A DNA stretch of 64,000 nucleotides from Myxococcota bacterium (lineage in GTDB: Bacteria > Myxococcota_A > SURF-8), in NCBI GenBank assembly GCA_963674735.2, contig CAXXQS010000002.1:1600001-1664000 (forward strand), written 5' to 3'. A program made the position numbers and the translations under genes. The notes below the pieces were generated by a model, which ran no database searches, had not been told where the DNA came from, and saw only the letters and a program-made list of their open reading frames with translations. Each line of letters starts with the position of its first letter. Position 1 is the stretch's first letter. Positions 50,428-63,302 of this stretch are shown here, in pieces.

Positions 50428-50503
50428 GGGCCGGTAGCTCAGCTGGTAGAGCAGCGGACTTTTAATCCGTCGGTCGGGCGTTCGAATCGCCCCCGGCTCA
50501 CCA
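50428..50503 (+). tRNA. tRNA-Lys(UUU)
   Basis: 76-nt cloverleaf GGGCCGG...CCGGCTC-A-CCA, anticodon loop CT-TTT-AA, T-loop TTCGAAT. Confidence 0.96.
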
Positions 50504-50528: not shown

Positions 50529-50603
50529 GACCCCATCGTCTAGTGGTTAGGACACCGGCCTTTCACGCCGGCGGCGCGGGTTCAAGTCCCGCTGGGGTCG
50601 CCA
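50529..50603 (+). tRNA. tRNA-Glu(UUC), integration target
   Basis: GACCCCA...TGGGGTC-G-CCA, anticodon arm CCGGC-CTTTCAC-GCCGG, T-loop TTCAAGT. Confidence 0.96.
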
Positions 50604-50664
50604 ACTGTTCATAGCAGGCAGCATTTTCGGTTAACATACTGAAAATGCTGTTTGTTTTTTATGG
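50596..50664 (+). repeat. attL direct repeat (69 bp)
   Basis: GGTCGCCAACTGTTCATAGC...GTTTTTTATGG identical to 63234-63302. Confidence 0.95.
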
Positions 50665-52075
50665 TTCCAAATTTCTCGCCGTCGAAGTCGATCCCACCTG
50701 TGAATAGGAGTTCCTGAAGTTTCACCCTCTCATCAAACTCCAGTGCTTCCCACAACTTACCGGCATTCATGACGATACGCTCAGCGAAGTCCAACGCGGA
50801 GTCGATATCCATGGTTCCGGAGTTCAGGCGGCCAAGTTCCCGCTCCACCTGTTCGATCTCGGCATCCAGTTCGATCTTCTTACTCTGGTAGGAGTCGTGG
50901 TCGATCTCTTCCTCGATGCGCAGATCGACAAGGCGGCTTTTTTTCTTCTTCAACTTTCGTAGATTGGCTTGCAGCCGTTTCTTGTGCTCCGTCCCTTCCG
51001 ACATGCGCTCCCGGTAGACATCCTTTACGATCTCGCGGAAGAGCCTCATATACTCCATCCTGGGCTTGATGCGGTTGATCTGCTCCAGGAACAGTTCTTC
51101 CATATTCTCCTTGCGGATGTTGACGGCCTTGCACTTGGTGTTCCGACAACGGTAGTAGGCATACTTCTTCCCACGGCCCGTACTCCACGACCCCGTGAGC
51201 GGTGTGCCGCATTTGGCGCAGCGTGTGAAGCGCCGGAGAGGGAAATCTTTGTTGTTCCGGTGGTGGGGGACATTCTGGTACGTGCGACCGTCCAGGATGG
51301 CCTGTACTTTCCGAAACAGATCTTCGGGGACGATGGGCTTGAAGTCGCCCTCGGTATCGATCTGGAAGCTCTCCAGGATCACACGACCGGCATATAACGG
51401 ATTGCGGAGCATGCGCCCGAAGGTCTGTGGATTGAGCTTGCCGCCCTTGGGGCTTGTGAAGCCGAGGGCATTGATCTTGTCCACAACCTGCTGCTTGGAA
51501 TACATGCGTTTGGCGAACAACTCAAAGCCTTTGCGGACAAGGTCGGCACACTCTGGATCATGAATAAGGCTCGGTCCCCCCTTCTTCCCATTGATATAGC
51601 CAATGGGAGCCTGATGGACCCATCGGCCATTCATGGCGGCTTCGAGCATGCCGGTTTTGGTCCGGTCGGAACGTAGGTCGTTATCAAGCTGAGCAAAGGT
51701 GGCGGCCATGTTTTCCATAGCCTTCCCCATCGGGCTGTCGTCGATGGGTTCGGTCACGGATCGAAGGGTAATGCCGAAGCTAGCCAGCTTGGCCTTCACT
51801 GCATGATGATCTTTGGCTTGGCGTGCAAAGCGACTCAGTTGGTAGACGACCAGAACACTAATGCGGCCCTTCGCCTTGCCGCAGTAGTCCAGCATGCGAA
51901 GAAGGGAACGACGGTTGGCGGTCTTGGCCGATTCGCCCTCCTCTACGAAGACCTTGTCCACCTCGTACCCGTTGCGCTCGCAATATTCCCGGCATAGGCG
52001 TTCCTGGCTTGTTAGACTGAAGTTGTCCACCTGTTCCTTCGATGACACCCGGCAATAGATAACGGCTCGTTCCAT
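50609..52075 (-). CDS. Large serine recombinase (integrase)
   Basis: AVIYCRVSSKEQ catalytic Ser, LSRFAR, APIGY, LRNPLYAG recombinase domain, CAKCG...YYRCRNTKC Zn ribbon, coiled coil. Confidence 0.95.
   Translation of the reverse strand: MERAVIYCRVSSKEQVDNFSLTSQERLCREYCERNGYEVDKVFVEEGESAKTANRRSLLRMLDYCGKAKGRISVLVVYQLSRFARQAKDHHAVKAKLASFGITLRSVTEPIDDSPMGKAMENMAATFAQLDNDLRSDRTKTGMLEAAMNGRWVHQAPIGYINGKKGGPSLIHDPECADLVRKGFELFAKRMYSKQQVVDKINALGFTSPKGGKLNPQTFGRMLRNPLYAGRVILESFQIDTEGDFKPIVPEDLFRKVQAILDGRTYQNVPHHRNNKDFPLRRFTRCAKCGTPLTGSWSTGRGKKYAYYRCRNTKCKAVNIRKENMEELFLEQINRIKPRMEYMRLFREIVKDVYRERMSEGTEHKKRLQANLRKLKKKKSRLVDLRIEEEIDHDSYQSKKIELDAEIEQVERELGRLNSGTMDIDSALDFAERIVMNAGKLWEALEFDERVKLQELLFTGGIDFDGEKFGTIKNKQHFQYVNRKCCLL
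50618..50660 (+). terminator. Intrinsic terminator of tRNA operon, within att repeat
   Basis: CAGCATTTTC...GAAAATGCTG stem followed by TTTGTTTTTT; duplicated at 63256-63298. Confidence 0.75.
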
Positions 52076-52078
52076 GGG

Positions 52079-52399
52079 TCAGTTCCTCTGGCTCTCAATG
52101 TACTCGGTTATGGCCACCCGCTCCGCTTTTTCACGGCACATCCCCTTATCTTGTACCAGAGCGGCGGCGCGTTTTTCCACTTCCTCTTGCTCCTCCGGCG
52201 GCAGGCGTTTAAGAAACTCCTCAAATTCCTCGGATGCAACACCGACATCTACAGCATGATGCTGTTCGGTGTAAGCCGACACCACCACATGCGCCAGTTG
52301 ATACAGCGACTCCCGGATCTCGGTTAACTCTTCGTCCGAGACCGCCGCATCCGCTCCGAGGAGCTTTCTGCAACGATCAAGGCTAATAAGCATGACCAT
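52079..52399 (-). CDS. Small hypothetical protein coupled to integrase (candidate directionality factor)
   Basis: Abuts upstream HTH gene (TAAATG) and ends 3 bp before integrase ATG. Confidence 0.65.
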   Translation of the reverse strand: MVMLISLDRCRKLLGADAAVSDEELTEIRESLYQLAHVVVSAYTEQHHAVDVGVASEEFEEFLKRLPPEEQEEVEKRAAALVQDKGMCREKAERVAITEYIESQRN

Positions 52400-52624
52400 T
52401 TATTCATGCGCGCCTTGACCACGTAACCATTCCACCACATTGTCTCGGTAGAAGAGTATTCGACGACCAGCCCGGAAGTGGGGGATTTTTCCAGCAACAA
52501 CCATCGAGTACAACGTACGGGCATGAATGCCGAGATAATCAGCAAGCTGCTTCACAGACGAAACCTCGGGAAGTTGAGTGCTAGACTGGTTGTTCTGTTT
52601 GCTTTGTTTGGTGCTCATTTGCAT
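52400..52624 (-). CDS. Excisionase-like helix-turn-helix protein (HTH_17/MerR-like)
   Basis: SVKQLADYLGIHARTLYSMVVAGKIPHFRAGRRILF...VEWL; AAGGA RBS. Confidence 0.88.
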   Translation of the reverse strand: MQMSTKQSKQNNQSSTQLPEVSSVKQLADYLGIHARTLYSMVVAGKIPHFRAGRRILFYRDNVVEWLRGQGAHE

Positions 52625-54037: not shown

Positions 54038-57000
54038 TCACCCATCCAGCACCTTCCGTACCATCTTGGCCAGATCTTGTGGCGTATAAGGTTTGCCGAT
54101 GAAGCTTAGACCTTCGTCCAACACACCATGATGGGCGATAACGTCCTCTGTATATCCGGATGTGTAAAGAACCTTCAGGTTCGGTATGATCGACTGGAGT
54201 TCTTCGGCCAATTCACGCCCGTTCATGCCGGGCATGACGATGTCGGTTACGAGCAGGTCTATTTCCAGATTCTCCTTCTTGACCTTGCTCAAAGCCATCG
54301 GACCGGAATCCGAACTATGGACTTTATAGCCTTGCCTTACAAGAATCTTGGTGGCGATGTTGCGCACCATACGCTCGTCTTCCACCAGAAGGACAGTTTC
54401 GCTCCCACTTGGAAGATCATCCATCTTGGTTTTTCTGGTAAGTGTTTCAGCTTTTTCCATGACAGCCGGGAAGGAAATGCGAAATATTGTCCCCTGGCCC
54501 GGTTCGGAATGGACTTCGATATGACCATCATGCTGCTTGACAATCCCGTAAACCATCGCCAGTCCCAAGCCGGTACCTTCGCCTTCTTTCTTTGTCGTGA
54601 AGAATGGATCGAATACCTTCTGCCGGGTGTCCTCATCCATACCCGCTCCATTGTCGGAGACGGTTAAAACAACATACTGGCCATGGGCAATCTTGGAGCA
54701 TGTTTCGCAACGCACATCCTCGAATGAAACATTGGCTGTCTCGATGGTCAGCTTGCCACCATTCGGCATAGCATCTCGCGCATTGACGGCCAGGTTTACC
54801 AAGATCTGTTCAAGTTGACCGGGATCGGCTTTGATGCGTCCCAGATCCCTTGTCGGAATGGTCATAAGTTCCAGATCTTCACCAATCAAGCGCCTTAACA
54901 TCTTGTGCATGTTGTCGATCAACTGATTCAGGTCGAGGACCTTCGGCTTGATGATTTGCTTGCGGCTAAATGCCAGAAGCTGGCGTGTCAGGCTTGCCGC
55001 GCTGTCCGCAGCTTGACCAATTTCCCCTAGTGATTCCAGCAGTGGGTCACCTGGAGAAAGATCCATCATGGCAAGGGACACATTACCTGTAATCCCGGTG
55101 AGCAGATTATTGAAATCATGAGCGACACCTCCGGCTAGACGGCCGACAGATTCCATTTTCTGGGATTGCTGAAGTTGCTCCTGTAGCCTTGCTTTCTCTT
55201 CCTCCGCTGCTTTCCGTTCCGTTATATCATCAATAATCCAGACAGCCCCAAGACTAAGGTCCGGCGGGGCAATGGCGCGACCATTGAACTGACACCATAC
55301 GGTGTGACCGTCCTTATGACGCAATGGATACTCCAATTGAACGATGTTGGTTTCACCGAGTCGCCAATAGTACTTCTCCCCGAATTCTTCAAAGTGCTTT
55401 TTAGAAAGATGGAGTTGTTCCGGTCCTTTGCCCTCCATTTCCTCCACCGAAAATCCCAGCATCTCCGCCATACGTGAATTGACTTTCGTGATGATCCTGT
55501 TGTGCAGCACCATGATGCCCACCATGCTGCTTTCCAGGATGGCGCTTTGCTCTTCGAGGTTGGATTTGAGTGATTGCTCGGCGAGTTTCAATTCAGAGAT
55601 GTCGGTATGCGTGCCAACCATTCGAATGGGTTTATCTTCCTTATCTCGTTCGACGACTTTTCCGCGACCGAGAATCCATTTCCATTCCCCGTTCTTCGTC
55701 TTCAGGCGAAACTCAACACCAAACGACTCTCTCTGGCTCTCAATATGCTGCTGGACGACCGATTGAGCATTATCTGCATCATCCGGGTTCAACAGGCTTT
55801 GCCATGTATCGAACGTCGACGGCAATTCTCCGGGTTCGTAACCCAACATCGTGAAATAGCGCGGACTGAAGTATACTTCCCCTGTCACAATATTCCAGTC
55901 CCACAGCCCATCAGCAGTGGCTGTGAGGGCGTATGACAATCTTTCCTCGCTGGCTCTAAGCGCCTCTTCAGCCCGCCTGCTCTCGGTAATATCCCTGAAT
56001 TCGACAGTCCTGACCTGTTTTCCTTTATATGGGATATTTCTGGCTTCAAGTCTTAAAGGATACTCTTCTCCATTCTTCCGCAAGCCGATAGCCTCATAAG
56101 GTTTTTCATACCCGGTCATGATTTTTTCCATGACCAATTCCCGTTTCGATTCGGCAATAAGCAACAGGCCATCCATGCCGATCAATTCATCCAGGGAGTA
56201 TCCGGTCATCTCGGACATGCCCTGATTGCACTCAAGAATTCTTCCCTTGTCGTGAATGGCAATACCACCGAATGAAGCATTGTGGAGGGATCGAAAACGC
56301 TCTTCGCTCTCTTGTAGAGCATTTTCCGCCTCTTTACGATCCGTGATCTCGCGATTTACCCCAATGATACCGATTGCCTCCCCTTGATCATCGCGCAGGA
56401 AAGAAACCGTTGACTCTACCGGATAGGTGGTGCCATCGGAACGATACATGTCAAGTTCGATGGTTATGGCGGTTGATGGATCAAGCTCCCCCGCCCGTTC
56501 TGATTGTAAATACTGCTGAAGTCTGTCCAATGAAAGCGCGACGGATTCCGGCGTCATGCTTTCCTGCAATGGCTGGTTCAGTTTTTCTTCTACGGAAAAC
56601 CCGCTTTGCTTCTTGATGGAAGGGCTGATGTAAGTGAGATTCAGGTCCAAATCACGAATCCATATGACATCGGAGATGTTGTCGGCCAGCAAACGATATT
56701 TCTTTTCACTTTCCACTATCGCTTTTTGACTGAGTTTCTGATCCGTGATGTCGAAGTTGACACCGATCATGCGAACGGACTGACCTTTCTCCTCTTTGAC
56801 AACCGCTGCATAGGCTTTTATATATTTTACCGTCTCATCAGGCCAGACTACCCGGAATTCAGATTCGAAATTTTCACCCGTTCGAATGGAGTCTTCCACC
56901 TCTCGACTTGCCCGCTCCACATCATCAGGATGAACTCCTTGTAGCCATGTTTCGTAGGCACCGCCAAAACCACTAGGACGGAGACCGTACAACTCGAACA

Positions 57001-60000
57001 TACGCTCGTCCCATTCGAGGTGGTTTTCAATCAAATCAAGATCCCAAATACCGAGTTTTGCCGATTCTTTCGCTAATGTAATTCTTTGATACGCCACTTT
57101 CAGTTTCTGTTCGAATCGGCGACGCTCCGTCATATCTCGCGCAATGCCGATTACCCGCTCGCCTTCATGTGTGTCAAGCACGGAGATGGTGATCTCCACC
57201 GGGTATGTCGTACCATCTTTACGCTTATGATTTGAGTCGTGGCTCATTCTACGGGTTTCAAACAACTCTCGGAAGATGGCATCAAGCGCGTCTTTCGACA
57301 CCGTCTCGGCATCGATATCCGTAATGTTCATGGAGAGCAATTCATCCCGGCTGTAGCCGCTGTCTCGACTGGCTTGAGCATTGACCTGGATGATAGCTCC
57401 CGTTTTATCACTGATGTAGATGGCGTCTGCAGCATTGTCGAGAAAAGCCTGAAGGCGCTCGTTGGTCTCTTTCAGTTCAAGGTCTTTACGTTTTCTTTCG
57501 GTAATATCTCTGGCAAAAACCGTGAACTTCTGCTGGTCTGGAAGATACGTAGTGGAGATTTCAACATCAATGATTCGACCATCTTTCCGCCTGTGACGCG
57601 CTTCGAACCGGGACGACCCGGTTTTCTTGATCTCTTCGGCATGTCGCGCTGTATCTTCGGGATCTTCATCGACATCAATATCCGTGATGGTCATTTCCAA
57701 CACTTCATCTATGGAGTAGCCGAGCATATCAGCGAAGGCCTGATTGACTTCAAGGCAATGACCTTCCGCATCCATCAGCCAGAAACCGTCCATGGTCGTT
57801 TGGATTACGGATTGCGCCTGCTGATACAGCACCTCGTATTCCTCAGCAAGTTCCCGATGCCTGATATTACTTTCCTTTAGCTTTTTCTCTGCATGCTTGC
57901 GTTCTGAAATATCCCGACCGATACTGAGAAAGCAGGATTGACCATCCCACATGATTGGCTTGACTGAAGTCTCTATAGGTAAAACGGAGCCGTCTTTTCG
58001 AAAGTGTCCCACCTCAAAAGTGGATTCACCCGTTTCCATGATCTCCCGGATTCGCGCATCAATTTTTTCCTCACTCTCCGGTACATCCAACTCGTGTAAA
58101 TTGATGGAAAAGAACTCTTCTGGCGCATAGCCGTGAAGCTCGAATGTCTTCCGGTTGGCGTAAACAAAGTTCCCTTCAGAATCATGTACCGTGATGGTAT
58201 TCGGCGCTGAATCTACCATTTCCGCCAGAACCCGATTGCGTTCCTCGGCCTCTATATGCTCGGTAATGTCCTGATGGTTCCCTATCATGCGCACGGCCTC
58301 GCCTTCCGGAGTGCGTTCAACAACGCGAGCGCTGGCCCGTATCCGACGATACTCGCCGCTCTTTGTCCGCAGGCGGAATTCGTTTTCGTAGGTATCGGAT
58401 TTTGTTTCCAGGTATTCGGAAGCCGCTGAAAGGGCGCGATCCAGATCGTCTGGGTGGATCAGCGCTTTCCAGTTTTCAAAATCGGCAGGAAACTCATCCG
58501 GTTCGTAACCGAGCATCGTGTAATATTTGGGACTGAAGGAGAGTTCGTTGGTGATGAAATTCCACTTCCATATACCGTCAGTTGTCGCGTCAACGGTAAG
58601 TTCGAGTTCTCTTTGATATTCCTGAATGCGCTTTTCAGCCCCTATCCGTTCGGAAATATCTTGTACCGTTGCAAGTATCCGGGTTGGCTGACCCTCTTCT
58701 CGTGCAATCGTCCCTTCTACATGCACGTGGATAACCACACCATCTTTCCGAACAATCCGATATTCATTGGGAGTGAGCCTGTTTTTGCCGGAAGCAACAT
58801 TTTCTTCAAGCCAGACCTGAATACGCTCCAGGTCGTCAGGATGATGAACCTCGGCATTCACTTTCGCATAGTCGAGTATTTCACCTTCGCTATATCCCAT
58901 CAGAGTTTGCATTCCAGGAGACCAGGAAACCTTTCCGGTTTCCACCTCCCACATGACATCACCCATTCTGGCGATGTATTGAGAAGCTATCAGCCGTTTT
59001 TCGCTTTCTTGAAGTGCTTCCTCGGCCAGTCTCTGCTCGCTAGTGTCCTCGTACACCGCCACGATCTGTCCGTTGGGAAGTCGATATACCGTATTCTCGA
59101 CCCACTCACGGATGCGATTGTCTTTGTAAGTTCTTAGCGGCAGATGCAGGGTTTTACCGGTGCGATAAACCTCCTGGAATATCTCGAATAAGCCGATATC
59201 CTTGATTCCAGGAAAAACCTCCGTGACCCTTTTGCCGATAATCTCATCCCGGGCAACCTTGCTGTGCTTCTCTCCCGCCGGATTGATATCAACAAAGACA
59301 AAATCTTTGCCATCATCAATCGGCTGGTAAACGGCAACGCAGCTTGCAATCGTATTGAATAAGCCATGGAAGCTACTTTCTCGTTCCGCAAGATTTTGCT
59401 CTGCTTTTCTTTGGTCTGTTGTGTCTTGCCCGTTTACGTTGACATAGATAACCTTACCGTTCTCATCGAAAATCGGCTTGTAAATTCGTGGTCCAAATTT
59501 TCGATTTCCATTGAAATCGAAAAAATAAACCTCATCGGTTACGATTTCTCCCTTTAAGGCACGCTCAAGTGATTTTCTGGAAGTCTCCTCTGCCCCTGAA
59601 TCGAAATCCCACCAGGGAGCCAGAGCAAATTCTTTGCCGATTACCTTAAATCGAGGCGTTTGTGTGACTTCAAAACACAGCTCATTGGCATCAGCGACCA
59701 TACCATTCGGGTCGATAAGCATGTTGAATTGGAAAGATTGATCGAAGGCCAATTTAAATCGCAGATCCTTTTCGCGTACTTTAAGCTCTGCTTCTTTGCG
59801 TTCCGTAATATCAACATTAGCGCCTAAATATCCGGTGATTTCCCCATTTTCATCAGTAAGGGCCACCGCCGATCCTAAAACCCAAGAAACTTTTCCTTCC
59901 GGGGTGCAAAAGCGATACTCCATATTCCAGGGTTTGTGCTGATTCGCGTGCTCATTCCAGAGCTTGAAGATTCTTTCCTTATCTTCAGAATATAAACCAT

Positions 60001-61399
60001 CCTGCCATCCGTCTCCCAAGGATTCTTCTAACGACAGACCGGCCAAGTCCCTCCATTTCTTGTTGACATAGAGACAGCGACCAGTCCGGTCTGTTTCGTA
60101 AATGGCAATGGGCGAGGATTCGGCCAGCGTCGAAAAACGCTTCTCACTTTTTCTTATAGCTTCTTCAGCGTGCTTTTTCTCGGTGATATCGTGAAGCGTT
60201 ACAAACACTTGGTAAGGCGAGTCCTCCCCTTGCCTGAACATCGGTATGGCGTTGATGATCGTCCAAACGAAATCCTGTTTTAACGGGTTGAATACAGCCA
60301 AAACCTCATTTTCTACCGATTTACCTGTCTGCAAAGCGATCACGGATGGATGTAGATCCCCAGGTACTTCGTCACCATTTTCATTCACGACTCGCCAATC
60401 TGGATGCATGGACGTGCGGCCCATAAACTGGTCGCGCGTCAGTCCCCACATGTCAAGCAAGGCCGAATTGCAGTCCGCAAGGGAGCCATCTGCAAGCTGA
60501 TAAAAAGCCCCCTGGGTCATGTTTTCAAACAACGAACGATACTTGGCTTCATTTTCCGCAAAGTCTGCTTCGGCTTTTTTTCGAGCTGAAATATCGTGTG
60601 AAATAATTTGAACGCCGGCAATTTCTGCATCAGATCGAGATATCTTCGTGTAGATGCTCAGGAACCATAGCTTCCCAATTGGTAGGTCGACGCAATCCTC
60701 ATATTCTTCCGGGCCATCAGCTTTGATTGCGGAGTTGATTCGTTTCATGTATTCAGTGCCAGCTTCTGCTGGGAAGAGATCGTTAATCGATTTGCCAATG
60801 AAATCTTGTGGCGCTCCACCCATTCGCTCTGCTGCTACTTTATTGAATGAGAGAACTGTTCCAGCAGGTGAAAAATAGCCGATGCCTATCCCCGCAGTAT
60901 CATAAAGGAGGCGAAATTTCTCTTCGCTTTCCCGTGTATTGTTTTCTGTTTGTTTTCTTTCTGTAATATCGATATGGGAGCCTCGCATGTAGCTTGGCTT
61001 TTGGTTTTTGTCGGCAAAAACGGATGCTTGAGCCAGAATCCAGCGGTAGGAACCATCCTTGTGACGGAATCTGAATTCGACCTGATAATCTTGCAGTAAC
61101 TTATCAATACAATCCTGGACTTGCTCCATGAGTAGCCCAATGTCATCCGGATGAACACGGCTCTCAAATTCTTTGAATTCATTTCCTAATTCGTCCGGCT
61201 CATAGCCAATTTGACGCTTCCATTCATCAGAGAAATCGACCTTGTTTGTCTTCAGGTTCCAGTCCCATAAACCGACCTTTCCTGCTTTTGCTGCCTGAGT
61301 TTCTCGCCAATGAGCTTCCCGCTCAATCTCTTCGATCCTTTGGCGAGCGGATTCAAGCTCCTCAATCAGCTGGGCTTTGGTTTTCTGTTGATCTGACAC
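54038..61399 (-). CDS. Giant soluble hybrid sensor histidine kinase (about 16 PAS-PAC, HisKA, HATPase, REC)
   Basis: Repeated PAS ends DITERK-like; [58 protein letters not shown]; GTG start at 61399 preferred (ORF open to 61474). Confidence 0.95.
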
Positions 61400-61933
61400 A
61401 ATGGCCCCCATTGCTTGATGCCATACTTCCCTGAAAATACAGCGAAAATACTTTTCCCTACTGCGATCAAACATTTTACAACGACGTTAGATAAAAGGAC
61501 AAGTAAAAGTAGGAAAACAGGGCATTAATCGGCTGCTTGTCCGGATTCGGCGTAGCGCAAAAACCGTGCCGTTGGGTAACCTTACGGGCGCTTGGAGTTA
61601 CCCCCGAAATGGCCCAAAAATGTGCCCAGTTGAAAGCCGATATAGCTTCAAAACTGCACAAACTGGGGGGTGTTGCACAATGCTCCCGCCCGCTCGCCAT
61701 CACCTCGATCTCGCCCGCAAGCTGGCGATAATTTCCCCCAAAAAAATCCTCGCATGCTCACGAACCAGGTGGATCAATATTTTTCCGCCTCTTTGAGGGC
61801 TTACACTGAGTGTAACCACCAGGGTCCCCTTTCCAACGCCATAGCCCTTCAGGCGGGCGAGGGCTTGCACACTTCTTGGGGGTAGACCACGCTTCCCAAG
61901 CAACCACCTCGCGCCAGGCTGTATTCTTTTTCG

Positions 61934-62067: not shown

Positions 62068-62898
62068 TCAATCCTCCTCAACCTCCGGACTCCACGCACT
62101 GCCCCACATCAGGAGCAGATTGCGATGCTGGAGGCCTTGATGGAGCTGCAACAGGTGTTCTAATGATGCCTGAGAAGGCTCCTCAGAAGGCTGTGGGCAC
62201 CTCGTAACGGCTTTCATGGCATACTTTGCAAACCCCTCTGCATTCCAAGGCTGTAAATAGCGATCTCGATGCGGAACAAACCATGCACGCGATCCGAGAA
62301 GGCCGTGCCACTGGTCATCGACCCAGAGTGGATCAAACTCATCCGTCACATCCAGAACGACATGCGAATGAACATTCCAGGCCCGTCTATCACGAGTAAG
62401 CGGCACCTCGATTGCACTGATACCACCTTGCACCATCTCCATGAAGCGCTTACGGCGCCTGAGCGTCTTCTGGGCGGTGCGGAAATCATCAAGCGTTTCC
62501 CGCAGATCCCAACGGCATTTCGACCTGAGCTCAAAAATGAAAATCTGAGGCCGTTTCATTCGTTTCAAAGCTCGGAGCACCTTCTGCGCGTTCTCCTGCG
62601 CCACACGCTCAGCACAAATTGGACAGAGGCGGCGGTTGCATTGTGTTCGTTGCGGGATGCCATTGTAGAGCTGGATGGTCCCGCACCGGCGGACCTGTGA
62701 GGCGTATGACAGCAGACCAATTTGCTCCAATTCCTGCGCCCGAATCTCCTGAACGGCATCCACATCATCACCTACAAACTCAGTGGAATAGTCTGCTCTG
62801 TACACATCTTTATTATTCCCCGTCGATCTAAAATTCGCTCCGCACAAATTTCGAGCGGCATCCATCGCTCTGGTTGCTTTCTGGTTTTGGATATCCAT
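62068..62898 (-). CDS. rep: Rolling-circle replication initiator (HUH, Rep_1/pC194-like)
   Basis: Zn finger C..CNRRLCPIC; GGISAIEV; HUH WNVHSHVVL; catalytic AKYAMK; AAGGAG RBS before ATG 62898 (alternative start 62925). Confidence 0.82.
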   Translation of the reverse strand: MDIQNQKATRAMDAARNLCGANFRSTGNNKDVYRADYSTEFVGDDVDAVQEIRAQELEQIGLLSYASQVRRCGTIQLYNGIPQRTQCNRRLCPICAERVAQENAQKVLRALKRMKRPQIFIFELRSKCRWDLRETLDDFRTAQKTLRRRKRFMEMVQGGISAIEVPLTRDRRAWNVHSHVVLDVTDEFDPLWVDDQWHGLLGSRAWFVPHRDRYLQPWNAEGFAKYAMKAVTRCPQPSEEPSQASLEHLLQLHQGLQHRNLLLMWGSAWSPEVEED

Positions 62899-62950
62899 CT
62901 CGCGCTCCTTTTTCGGAGCGGTCATGGCAGAAACACAGCAGGAAAAGTGC

Positions 62951-62979
62951 TTGAGCGAAAAGGCTCAATTCAGTATAAT
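62951..62979 (+). promoter_or_regulatory. sigma70-type promoter antisense to element genes, with overlapping palindrome
   Basis: TTGAGC-17 bp-TATAAT; inverted repeat TTGAGC-gaaaag-GCTCAA at 62951-62968. Confidence 0.55.
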
Positions 62980-63098
62980 GATTACATTCCCGCCTTGCGC
63001 TACGTCTGCCAGGACCGCAAGGTTATCACCGCCCCTGCCAGGGCGGTTTTCTCGTTCAGGCTTCCGCTTCCGTTCTCAAGGCACACCGGTCCATCGCT

Positions 63099-63233
63099 TC
63101 ATCCCCTCGCTTCTTCTTGTTCGGTGATTAAGTGCCAGAAATCACGGCGGTTCTTGGCCTCGAAAAGAGACGCCTTAAGCATCTCCATACTGTCGAGCCA
63201 GTCGTCAATCTGTTTCCAAGTCAGCGTCTCGTC
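63099..63233 (-). other. Orphan 44-codon reading frame: putative alternative integrase C-terminus rejoined on excision
   Basis: Stop-free frame DETLTWKQIDDWLDSMEML...EEARG* directly continuing ...YEQLAT encoded in the att repeat. Confidence 0.5.
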
Positions 63234-63302
63234 GGTCGCCAACTGTTCATAGCAGGCAGCATTTTCGGTTAACATACTGAAAATGCTGTTTGTTTTTTAT
63301 GG
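63234..63302 (+). repeat. attR direct repeat (69 bp)
   Basis: Identical to 50596-50664. Confidence 0.95.

What the first reader, a model, noticed from the sequence alone, without database searches (positions are those of the whole stretch)
50563..50664. att site inside the integrase gene: integration state could swap the integrase C-terminus
Seen: the integrase 3' end runs through the att repeat. As sequenced it stops at 50609 (GTIKNKQ...CCLL*). Skipping one base of the A6 run (50655-50660) gives GTIKTNSIFSMLTENAACYEQLAT. At attL this continues as PAGLEPAPPA*, reading tRNA-Glu antisense and stopping at its anticodon. In the excised circle the same frame would continue into 44 stop-free codons stored at the other end of the element (63099-63233, DETLTWKQIDDWLDSMEML...). 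Known: attP inside a gene that is altered on integration occurs in SSV1 integrase and mycobacteriophage BPs repressor. Inference: integrated and excised forms encode different integrase isoforms, a possible built-in directionality or stability switch. From memory, homologues end in similar ASPxGFEP tails, but this needs checking.
Basis: partly seen in the sequence, partly recalled or inferred. Interest (0 to 1): 0.85.

Follow-up and report, generated by a model that had tools for sequence, protein, structure and literature searches.

The report
Serine integrase gene spanning its attachment site
A small mobile element sits at the end of a glutamate tRNA gene, and its integrase gene runs across the insertion site, so in this enzyme family insertion swaps a conserved tail helix for a few residues read off the back of the tRNA; in this copy a one-base insertion has broken that tail.

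Summary
A perfect 69-nt direct repeat (50596-50664 and 63234-63302) brackets a 12.6-kb element at tRNA-Glu(UUC). Its large serine recombinase (LSR, 50609-52075, minus strand) ends inside the repeat.

Homologues follow the +1 frame, not the sequenced one. Of 119, 101 end in antisense-tRNA tails and 5 carry the alternative tail found at the far end of this element. In 80 related loci from many phyla, 68 integrase ORFs overlap a tRNA, 57 of them tRNA-Glu. In 13 of 13 loci where the far end was found, the alternative tail is in frame after conceptual excision. One 5,454-bp circular contig is such an excised form. The tail helix shows protein-level selection. The P-arm copy of the tRNA T-arm motif lies exactly 5 bp further out than the B-arm copy (14 of 14), the known LSR attP/attB rule.

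This copy is atypical. An extra A (A6, against A5 in a 93%-identical relative) truncates the enzyme in both states. The right junction is attP-like: 61 nt of the P' arm are duplicated and no B' arm is present.

A regulatory role for the swap is untested. The scan has found this clade before on other DNA. I found no paper describing it.

The parts
50428..50503 (+). tRNA-Lys(TTT), host gene upstream of the target
   Evidence: ARAGORN
50529..50603 (+). tRNA-Glu(TTC), the integration target. It is intact. Its 3' half is read antisense by the conserved integrase frame.
50596..50664 (.). Left copy of the 69-nt perfect repeat: the last 8 nt of the tRNA plus 61 nt of the element's P' arm
   Evidence: Contigs of run X1 show it as a 69-nt unitig at double depth.
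50598..50601 (.). Inferred crossover zone. These are the bases common to all cores found in the family, positions 3-6 counted from the TGG that is the complement of CCA.
   Evidence: Inference from the 13 cores and the alignment. The crossover dinucleotide itself was not determined.
50579..50588 (.). B-arm motif (tRNA T-arm), the candidate site for the zinc-ribbon domain
50613..50656 (+). Terminator-like hairpin with a T run directly after the tRNA. It is encoded in the integrase tail codons (SIFSMLTENA).
50655..50660 (.). T6 (A6 in integrase sense) run. It has one base more than the intact relative and shifts the integrase out of the conserved frame.
   Evidence: A T5 variant appears in run X2.
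50609..52075 (-). Large serine recombinase as sequenced, 488 aa (Resolvase, Recombinase and Zn_ribbon_recom domains)
50563..50654 (-). Conserved-frame continuation at the left junction: ...TNSIFSMLTENAACYEQLAT, then 10 antisense-tRNA codons and TGA at the anticodon loop
   Evidence: It matches P0002 and L001/L037.
52079..52399 (-). 106-aa ORF next to the integrase. No family match. Candidate accessory or directionality factor (inference only).
52400..52624 (-). 74-aa HTH_17 protein, excisionase or regulator-like
54038..61474 (-). Cargo: a 2478-aa hybrid sensor histidine kinase with many PAS domains, HisKA, HATPase_c and a receiver domain
62068..62925 (-). Rep_1 (rolling-circle replication) protein, 285 aa
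63099..63233 (-). P arm and alternative integrase tail: 44 codons and a stop, with the motif TWKQIDDWLDSMEML. It joins the integrase frame only in the excised circle.
63212..63222 (.). P-arm copy of the T-arm motif, 5 bp further from the core than the B-arm copy
63234..63302 (.). Right copy of the 69-nt repeat. With the P arm beside it, it forms an attP-like site (P arm, core and 61 nt of P'). No B' arm or native terminator follows.
63099..63275 (-). 58-aa ORF that starts at an ATG in the duplicated P' segment and contains the whole alternative tail
   Evidence: Expression is unknown.

Best explanation
SHOWN. The window holds a 12.6-kb integrative element (Rep_1 replication gene, HTH_17 excisionase-like gene, a giant PAS histidine kinase as cargo) inserted at the 3' end of tRNA-Glu(UUC). 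It was inserted by a large serine integrase of a large clade, found in many phyla, whose attP lies inside the integrase's own ORF.

Strand exchange in this clade occurs at the CCA/acceptor end of the tRNA, with cores of 6-16 nt. Integrated copies therefore finish the ORF with about 10-13 codons read antisense through the tRNA, up to a stop at the anticodon loop. The excised circle instead joins the ORF to a conserved tail of about 25-45 residues. In the one natural long form that was modelled (P0049), this tail is predicted as an amphipathic helix on a disordered linker. Its motif is [ST]W[NK]Q-[ILV]-x-x-W-L-[RQK]-x-[MLV]-x-x-[LI]-[RK].

The codons for SWNQ double as the P-arm copy of the tRNA T-arm motif, placed 5 bp further out than in the B arm. 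That is the published LSR rule distinguishing attP from attB.

INFERRED. The helix belongs to the form of the enzyme that carries out attP x attB integration. Its loss on integration changes the activity, the partner choice or the stability of the integrase, so the integration state is written into the enzyme itself.

THIS COPY. One extra A in the A run truncates the protein at 488 aa in both states. The right junction is attP-like, with 61 nt of P' duplicated and no B' arm. The copy is therefore probably decaying or locked in place. RecA recombination between the 69-nt repeats could still release a circle with a normal attP.
For: Domains and fold. Pfam finds Resolvase, Recombinase and Zn_ribbon_recom. 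The AlphaFold model of the natural long-form homologue P0049 (pLDDT 88.6) matches full-length serine integrase structures: 9dxh at E 6e-18, then Bxb1, PhiC31 and LI.

The conserved frame. P0002 (69% identical) and L001/L037 (93% identical, A5 run) read ...KT[ND]SIFSMLT.NA...LATPAGIEP....

Tails. 101 of 119 homologues have antisense-tRNA-like tails, 5 have the W tail and 13 have other or truncated ends.

Targets. In 68 of 80 related loci the ORF's 3' end overlaps a minus-strand tRNA, and 57 of these are tRNA-Glu. The median overlap is 41 nt.

Far ends. A profile of the alternative tail finds 13 hits at E<1e-3 upstream on the integrase strand. The best hit on the opposite strand has E 4.4. Two of the 13 are loci of, or near-identical to, seed sequences. 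All 13 have a 6-16 nt core identical to the tRNA end and are in frame. Chance for this is about (1/3)^13. Three weaker hits are also in frame.

A natural circle. L096 has a 55-nt terminal overlap and 5,454 unique bp. It equals the integrated element L086:6018-11477 at 99% identity, with the junction at the 6-nt core and a contiguous long ORF.

Protein-level selection. The hydrophobic helix positions have invariant second codon positions and free third positions (L8: 2.00 against 0.16 bits; L14: 2.00 against 0.22). Between the window and G005, the helix has 0 non-synonymous and 4 synonymous codon changes.

The 5-bp offset holds in 14 of 14 loci. It matches Rutherford et al. 2013 (PMC3783163, passages read).

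Modular conservation. The window's element and G005's element share only the integrase (93%) and 220 nt around the tail (86%).
Against: No function of the tail has been measured. In this copy the frame is broken, so the element either tolerates loss of both tails or is dead.

The AlphaFold model gives the helix only moderate confidence (pLDDT 65-79). I could not inspect where it docks.

In 67 of 80 loci no far end was found. The search reached at most 10 kb upstream and many contigs are short, so this is neither support nor refutation.

Part of the motif (SWNQ) is explained by a constraint at the DNA level.

The contigs laid on the window showed no circle junction and no empty site for this element.
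Confidence: 0.75

Rival explanations
1. The overlap is only genome compaction. attP happens to lie in the last codons. The helix contributes to general folding or activity, and its loss after integration is neutral or merely tolerated. It is not a switch.
For: The conserved domains end at about ...FGT, and 20-28 poorly conserved, predicted-disordered residues precede the helix. This copy lacks both tails, yet the rest of the integrase ORF is intact. McMurdie et al. offered a similar 'trivial' reading for DsiB.
Against: The helix is under protein-level selection across phyla. It is kept in frame in 13 of 13 loci. It is conserved together with the integrase while the cargo is replaced. A dispensable tail would not be maintained in this way.
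Confidence: 0.2
2. The apparent tail conservation reflects only DNA, namely the P-arm binding site of attP. The open frame beyond the core is incidental.
For: The codons for SWNQ coincide with the TTGGAACC motif that mimics the tRNA T-arm.
Against: Conservation continues 30-45 nt beyond that motif, outside a roughly 25-bp LSR half-site. There, second codon positions are fixed and third positions vary. The frame is kept in 13 of 13 loci.
Confidence: 0.05
3. The A6 frameshift is not fixed. Either an in-frame A5 allele coexists in the population, or the conserved frame is reached by +1 slippage on the A run. In that case this copy still makes the family's isoforms.
For: In run X2, which is from the same sample as X1, three contigs with summed depth 14.4 of 21.8 lack one T at 50655. 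The unitig specific to the left junction breaks inside the T run there. A +1 slip of tRNA-Lys on AAA-AAC would give the conserved frame (read).
Against: Run X1 shows only T6 (0 of 9.46), and the right-junction unitig in X2 has T6. One of the three T5 contigs is a diverged relative with 10 mismatches. Six A's is a short run for efficient slippage. The in-phase A_AAA_AAC heptamer would favour a -1 shift, and that frame stops after KKQTAFSVC.
Confidence: 0.25
4. The 69-nt repeat is a classical long att core of a tyrosine-recombinase island, or simply the host's tRNA terminator, and the serine recombinase is a passenger.
For: Repeats of this length are typical of tyrosine-integrase islands at tRNA genes. 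The repeat contains a terminator-like hairpin.
Against: None of the 10 ORFs scanned matched a tyrosine recombinase; nine of them lie inside the element, the tenth in the right flank. The 93%-identical element in G005 shares only a 12-nt core with its far end and has a different, native-looking terminator on the B' side. The 61 nt encode the family's conserved tail segment.
Confidence: 0.05

Closest known systems
Large serine integrases of phages and islands (PhiC31, Bxb1, Listeria A118/LI, SPbeta-type)
   Same: The domain order is the same: catalytic domain, recombinase domain, zinc ribbon and coiled coil. The fold matches full-length solved integrases. The cores are short. The zinc-ribbon motif lies 5 bp further out in attP than in attB (compared with PMC3783163).
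   Different: The target is the 3' end of a tRNA gene. The Islander paper states that serine integrases were not known to target tRNA genes (PMC4383910, passages read). attP lies inside the enzyme's own ORF, so the C-terminus depends on the integration state.
Myxophage Mx8 integrase IntP/IntX
   Same: attP lies inside the int coding sequence. Integration creates a gene with a new 3' end, and the altered protein is reported to keep activity with changed specificity (review PMC6070905, passages read; also cited in PMC4383910).
   Different: It is a tyrosine recombinase, unrelated in fold and mechanism, and belongs to a phage rather than to a small plasmid-like element.
Dehalococcoides ssrA genomic islands, serine recombinase DsiB (McMurdie et al. 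2011, PMC3146451)
   Same: It is a large serine recombinase whose 3' end always overlaps attL. The authors speculated that it might be fully functional only on the circle (passages read).
   Different: The target is ssrA (tmRNA) with a 20-bp repeat. A second small serine recombinase, DsiA, accompanies it. The authors found the overlapping part divergent and showed no conserved alternative tail. I did not test homology to the present clade.
SSV1-type archaeal integrases
   Same: attP lies inside int, and integration into a tRNA gene alters the gene (cited in PMC4383910; details recalled).
   Different: It is a tyrosine recombinase, and the gene is split into two parts rather than given a short new tail (recalled).
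Mycobacteriophage BPs integration-dependent immunity
   Same: attP lies inside a gene whose product loses its C-terminus on integration.
   Different: The gene affected is the repressor, and the integrase is a tyrosine recombinase.

Membership tests
Large serine recombinase / serine integrase | N-terminal resolvase-type catalytic domain with the nucleophilic serine | tested here: met
   PF00239 matches at E 1.2e-34 over residues 4-152. The YCRVS motif, with R9, V10 and S11, is invariant in alignment A1.
Large serine recombinase / serine integrase | Recombinase domain and zinc-ribbon domain with conserved cysteines | tested here: met
   PF07508 (8.9e-13) and PF13408 (4.1e-11) match. Cysteines C289, C310 and C315 are invariant and C286 is nearly invariant.
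Large serine recombinase / serine integrase | Long coiled-coil inserted in the zinc-ribbon domain, and overall fold | tested here: met
   The AlphaFold model of homologue P0049 has helices at 349-396 and 403-427. Foldseek gives full-length serine integrases as the top hits. The model is of a 44%-identical homologue, not of the window's own protein.
Large serine recombinase / serine integrase | Short identity between attP and attB around a central dinucleotide | tested here: inconclusive
   Cores are 6-16 nt in 13 related loci, which fits. The window itself has a 69-nt repeat, which I read as a duplicated P' arm. The dinucleotide was not determined.
Large serine recombinase / serine integrase | Zinc-ribbon DNA motif 5 bp closer to the centre in attB half-sites than in attP half-sites | tested here: met
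   The offset between the B arm (tRNA T-arm) and the P arm is exactly 5 bp in 14 of 14 loci. The rule comes from PMC3783163. No clear motif was seen in the P' and B' arms.
Large serine recombinase / serine integrase | Directionality set by a separate recombination directionality factor | not testable with these tools
   The neighbours are a 106-aa ORF with no family match and a 74-aa HTH_17 protein.
Integrase genes that span their own attP (Mx8 IntP/IntX, SSV1 type) | attP inside the integrase ORF, so that integration changes the C-terminus | tested here: met
   This holds for the clade. In the window's copy the sequenced frame stops before the core, so the change is masked.
Integrase genes that span their own attP (Mx8 IntP/IntX, SSV1 type) | Tyrosine recombinase chemistry | tested here: not met
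   The enzyme is a serine recombinase. It works like these systems in layout but is not a member.
DsiB-type ssrA island integrases | Target ssrA, with a companion small serine recombinase DsiA | tested here: not met
   The target here is tRNA-Glu. No second resolvase-domain ORF was found among the ORFs scanned in the element. Sequence relatedness to DsiB was not tested.

The most novel reading that the evidence does not exclude
The C-terminal helix is a directionality determinant encoded in cis. Only the circle-encoded long form is competent, or licensed, for attP x attB integration. The helix-less form made from the chromosome has different competence, for instance it may favour or block attL x attR, or it may have a different half-life. 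A serine integrase system would then store its integration state in its own coding sequence, partly or wholly replacing a separate directionality factor.
Probability: 0.3. Interest if true: 0.9.

Novelty: new variant of a known kind. Interest (0 to 1): 0.68.

Why it matters
Serine integrases are the main tools for one-way DNA integration, and how they choose direction is a central question in the field. This clade could bear on that question for three reasons.

1. It is large and natural, found in Acidobacteriota, Myxococcota, Verrucomicrobiota, Patescibacteria and other phyla.

2. It targets the universal T-arm and acceptor end of tRNA genes, a target class said not to be known for serine integrases (PMC4383910).

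3. Its C-terminus is rewritten by the recombination event itself.

If the helix affects activity, it would offer a simple built-in way to make integrase function depend on integration state, and the clade a set of small, compact integrases.

For genome annotation, the finding explains hundreds of odd '...PTGFEPVLPP' protein ends. It also shows where the true 3' ends of these genes lie.

For this genome, the element appears to be a damaged copy: the integrase is frameshifted and the right junction is non-canonical.

Tried and rejected
1. -1 programmed frameshift on the in-phase A_AAA_AAC heptamer followed by the hairpin. The -1 frame ends after KKQTAFSVC* and is not the conserved frame. Rejected as a route to the family tail.

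2. A tyrosine recombinase as the maker of the 69-nt repeat. None was found among the 10 ORFs scanned. Not every small ORF was scanned.

3. Synteny of the right flank with G005, to find the native B' arm. There was no similarity beyond the tail. The right flank is ordinary chromosome: GH5, a papain-like protease, ftsEX, M23 and S41 peptidases. No native terminator follows the repeat. The origin of the 61-nt duplication stays open. I considered integration of a dimer followed by deletion, integration next to a remnant, and homologous recombination with a remnant. Remnant-like sites exist in relatives (L010, L016).

4. Public runs. No RNA holder is listed. The contigs showed no circle junction and no empty site for this element. 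Contigs cannot show absence.

5. Earlier findings by place and by sequence returned nothing.

6. A sequence search of the PDB gave only catalytic-domain matches. The fold search was needed.

7. PHROGs scan of six element ORFs: only the HTH_17 protein matched, as excisionase or regulator.

8. A second and a third profile iteration added no loci at E<1e-3. In that run the automatic core finder mis-anchored L097, which was in frame with a 12-nt core. It also failed on L072, whose core is unresolved. A hit in L111 (E 0.0067) was out of frame with a dubious core in the T-arm, and I judged it false.

9. Symmetric motifs in the P' and B' arms: none were clear.

10. Literature searches found no description of this clade.

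Full report
**What is in the window**

ARAGORN finds tRNA-Lys (50428-50503) and tRNA-Glu(TTC) (50529-50603) on the plus strand. A perfect 69-nt direct repeat lies at 50596-50664 and 63234-63302. It contains only the last 8 nt of tRNA-Glu plus 61 nt downstream.

Between the copies lie these genes, all on the minus strand:
- a 488-aa ORF (50609-52075) with Resolvase, Recombinase and Zn_ribbon_recom domains
- a 106-aa ORF with no family match
- a 74-aa HTH_17 protein, which PHROGs calls excisionase or regulator
- a 2478-aa ORF with many PAS domains, HisKA, HATPase_c and a receiver domain
- a 285-aa Rep_1 protein

The right flank is ordinary chromosome: GH5, a papain-like protease, ftsE/ftsX, and M23 and S41 peptidases. 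The unit is therefore a 12.6-kb integrated, plasmid-like element at tRNA-Glu.

**The observation**

As sequenced, the integrase ends ...GTIKNKQHFQYVNRKCCLL* inside the repeat. The adjacent frame reads KTNSIFSMLTENAACYEQLATPAGLEPAPPA* at the left junction. It runs antisense through the tRNA to a TGA that overlaps the anticodon loop (50563-50565). At the right junction the same frame continues from the repeat into DETLTWKQIDDWLDSMEMLKASLFEAKNRRDFWHLITEQEEARG*.

**Which frame is the real one**

The protein search found 2,614 relatives at E<=0.001 among 8,000 scored candidates and listed 120, most about 505 aa long. The nearest, P0002 (69% identical), ends ...GTIKTDSIFSMLTENAVRNDTLATPAGIEPALPA. 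This corresponds to the window's shifted frame.

A 93%-identical integrase in a Myxococcota MAG (L001/L037, which is genome handle G005) has ATAAAAAC where the window has ATAAAAAAC. It reads through in the conserved frame, giving 503 aa. The window's gene therefore carries a one-base insertion in the A run, and both repeat copies have it.

Contigs of run X1 reproduce the six-T version and show the repeat as a 69-nt unitig at double depth. Run X2 is from the same sample. There, three contigs with summed depth 14.4 of 21.8 lack one T at 50655, while the unitig specific to the right junction has six. One of those three contigs is a diverged relative. The insertion is thus not simply an assembly slip, but a five-T allele at the left junction may coexist with it.

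**The family pattern**

Of the 119 listed homologues, 101 end in tails of the type [LMV][AV][AST]P.G[FIL]EP.... These are antisense readings of the tRNA acceptor stem and T-arm. Five homologues (P0005, P0024, P0049, P0102, P0120) instead end in ...SWNQ[IL]..[WF]L..[LM]..L, the motif found at the window's far end. Thirteen are truncated or end otherwise.

A scan of one genome per species returned 80 loci from many phyla. In 68 of them the ORF's 3' end overlaps a minus-strand tRNA, with a median overlap of 41 nt. Fifty-seven of these are tRNA-Glu, and the rest are Asn, Lys, Arg, Leu or Ser. In 10 loci no tRNA was called, and in 2 the ORF runs off the contig.

**The far ends**

I built a profile from eight alternative tails. 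I searched it against stop-to-stop translations of the sequence upstream of each integrase, which reached at most 10 kb. It gave 13 hits at E<1e-3 on the integrase strand. The best hit on the opposite strand had E 4.4. Two of the 13 are not independent of the seeds: L037 is the G005 seed itself, and L086 is 99% identical to seed L096.

In all 13 loci a core of 6-16 nt, identical to the tRNA-end sequence at the left junction, directly precedes the tail. The tail's frame equals the integrase's frame across that core. Element sizes are 3.2-10.5 kb. Three weaker hits (L115, L112, L066) are also in frame. L072 could not be resolved automatically, and a hit in L111 was judged false.

For G005, the far end lies 9.6 kb upstream and shares only a 12-nt core with the left junction. 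The sequence outside it is a different, native-looking terminator hairpin.

**A natural circle**

Contig L096 (5,509 nt) has a 55-nt terminal overlap, so it is circular with 5,454 unique bp, and it carries no tRNA. It matches the integrated element L086:6018-11477 at 99% identity, with the junction exactly at the 6-nt core. On it the long integrase ORF is contiguous. The predicted excised form therefore exists in nature.

**Protein or DNA constraint**

Alignment of 14 far ends shows that the SWNQ codons (AGT TGG AAC CAG) resemble the reverse complement of the tRNA T-arm (GATTCGAACC). The GAA of this motif lies exactly 5 bp further from the core in the P arm than in the B arm, in 14 of 14 loci. 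Rutherford et al. 2013 describe this same offset for the zinc-ribbon motif of serine integrases: bp 16-24 in attP against 11-19 in attB (PMC3783163, passages read).

Beyond that motif the conservation is of the protein. At the hydrophobic positions of the helix the second codon base is invariant and the third is free, for example 2.00 against 0.16 bits at L8 and 2.00 against 0.22 at L14. Between the window and G005, the 16 helix codons have four synonymous and no non-synonymous changes. The whole tail has seven synonymous changes plus a stop change, against four non-synonymous. The integrase body has 80 synonymous against 21 non-synonymous.

The two elements share only the integrase (93%) and 220 nt around the tail (86%), and their cargo differs.

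AlphaFold on the natural long form P0049 gives a confident integrase (pLDDT 88.6). It has a disordered stretch at 489-505 and a helix at 509-528 with pLDDT 65-79. The model matches full-length solved serine integrases. I could not inspect where the helix docks.

**What is odd about this copy**

There are two oddities besides the cargo. The first is the frameshift described above.

The second is the 69-nt repeat, which is not the family's core. The family core corresponds to window 50598-50609 at most. The remaining bases are the element's own P' arm, which encodes the conserved TNSIFSMLTENAACYEQ segment and also forms a terminator-like hairpin with a T run directly after the tRNA.

The right junction is therefore a P arm, a core and 61 nt of P'. 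That makes it an attP-like site, with no B' arm and no native terminator after it. Canonical attL x attR excision would lack its B' half-site. RecA recombination between the repeats could still release a circle with a normal attP. It would leave tRNA-Glu followed by a P' remnant.

Remnant-like sites of this kind, with no integrase, exist in relatives: L010 in G005 and L016 in G010. I cannot decide how the duplication arose. The possibilities are integration of a dimer followed by deletion, integration beside a remnant, and homologous recombination with a remnant.

**How it most likely works**

Shown: the layout, the in-frame conserved helix, the circle, and the attP/attB logic.

Inferred: the long form, made from the circle, is the integrating enzyme. 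After integration the gene makes a protein that lacks the helix and ends in about 10 tRNA-derived residues. Its activity, partner choice or stability would then differ. I put this regulatory reading at about 0.3-0.4. The alternative that the loss is merely tolerated I put at about 0.2. The architecture itself I put at about 0.9.

**What is known**

The Islander paper states that serine integrases were not known to target tRNA genes, and it names Mx8 and SSV as integrases that extend across attP (PMC4383910, passages read). For Mx8, attP lies within int, and integration gives a new 3' end with changed specificity (review PMC6070905, passages read). For the Dehalococcoides ssrA islands, the serine recombinase DsiB always overlaps attL. 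The authors speculated that it may be fully functional only on the circle, but they found the overlapping part divergent (PMC3146451, passages read).

Five searches of the paper library found no description of a tRNA-targeting serine integrase clade with a conserved swapped tail.

This scan has reported the same design at least eight times on other genomes. Those notes gave me the Mx8 and DsiB leads, which I then checked in the papers.

**Verdict**

The design is a new variant of a known kind: integrase genes that span attP, here in serine integrases at tRNA genes.

Noticed in passing
window 54038-61474 (minus strand): The cargo is a 2478-aa hybrid sensor kinase with many tandem PAS domains (up to 10 stretches for a single PAS family). 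It has internal direct repeats about 380 nt apart (family D1). In run X3 a contig joins 52907 to 58210, skipping 5,302 nt at depth 17.8, so a shorter variant of the element exists in another sample.
   Followed up: partly
window 62951-63047 (plus strand): A promoter-like site (TTGAGC-17-TATAAT, 10 of 12) is followed by a terminator-like hairpin at 63028-63047. They lie antisense to the leader between the alternative tail and the Rep_1 gene, and might specify a small countertranscript that controls replication. The hairpin lies at the edge of the 220 nt conserved with the G005 element.
   Followed up: no
L014 (G004), positions 1-1584: A different serine recombinase ORF, more than 528 aa long, also runs through a terminator-like hairpin and antisense through the same tRNA-Glu, in another frame (...WRPQRDLNPRRRRERPVS). 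A second recombinase lineage may therefore use the same target and layout.
   Followed up: no
L010 (G005, second tRNA-Glu locus) and L016 (G010): In both, tRNA-Glu is followed by the same hairpin, a T run and a decayed piece of the integrase 3' end, with no integrase gene nearby. These look like remnants of lost elements.
   Followed up: partly
window 63099-63275 (minus strand): Because the P' arm is duplicated, an ATG in it opens a 58-aa ORF that contains the entire alternative tail. This copy could in principle express the tail as a free peptide.
   Followed up: no
window 50650-50662 (minus strand): The extra A creates an in-phase A_AAA_AAC heptamer 3 nt ahead of a hairpin with a 10-bp perfect core (19 pairs with G-T allowed). 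This is the textbook shape of a -1 frameshift site, yet the -1 frame stops after 9 codons.
   Followed up: partly
L096 and L086: A 5,454-bp circular contig binned to one MAG is 99% identical to an element integrated at tRNA-Glu in a Saccharibacteria MAG. The same tiny element was thus caught in both states.
   Followed up: yes
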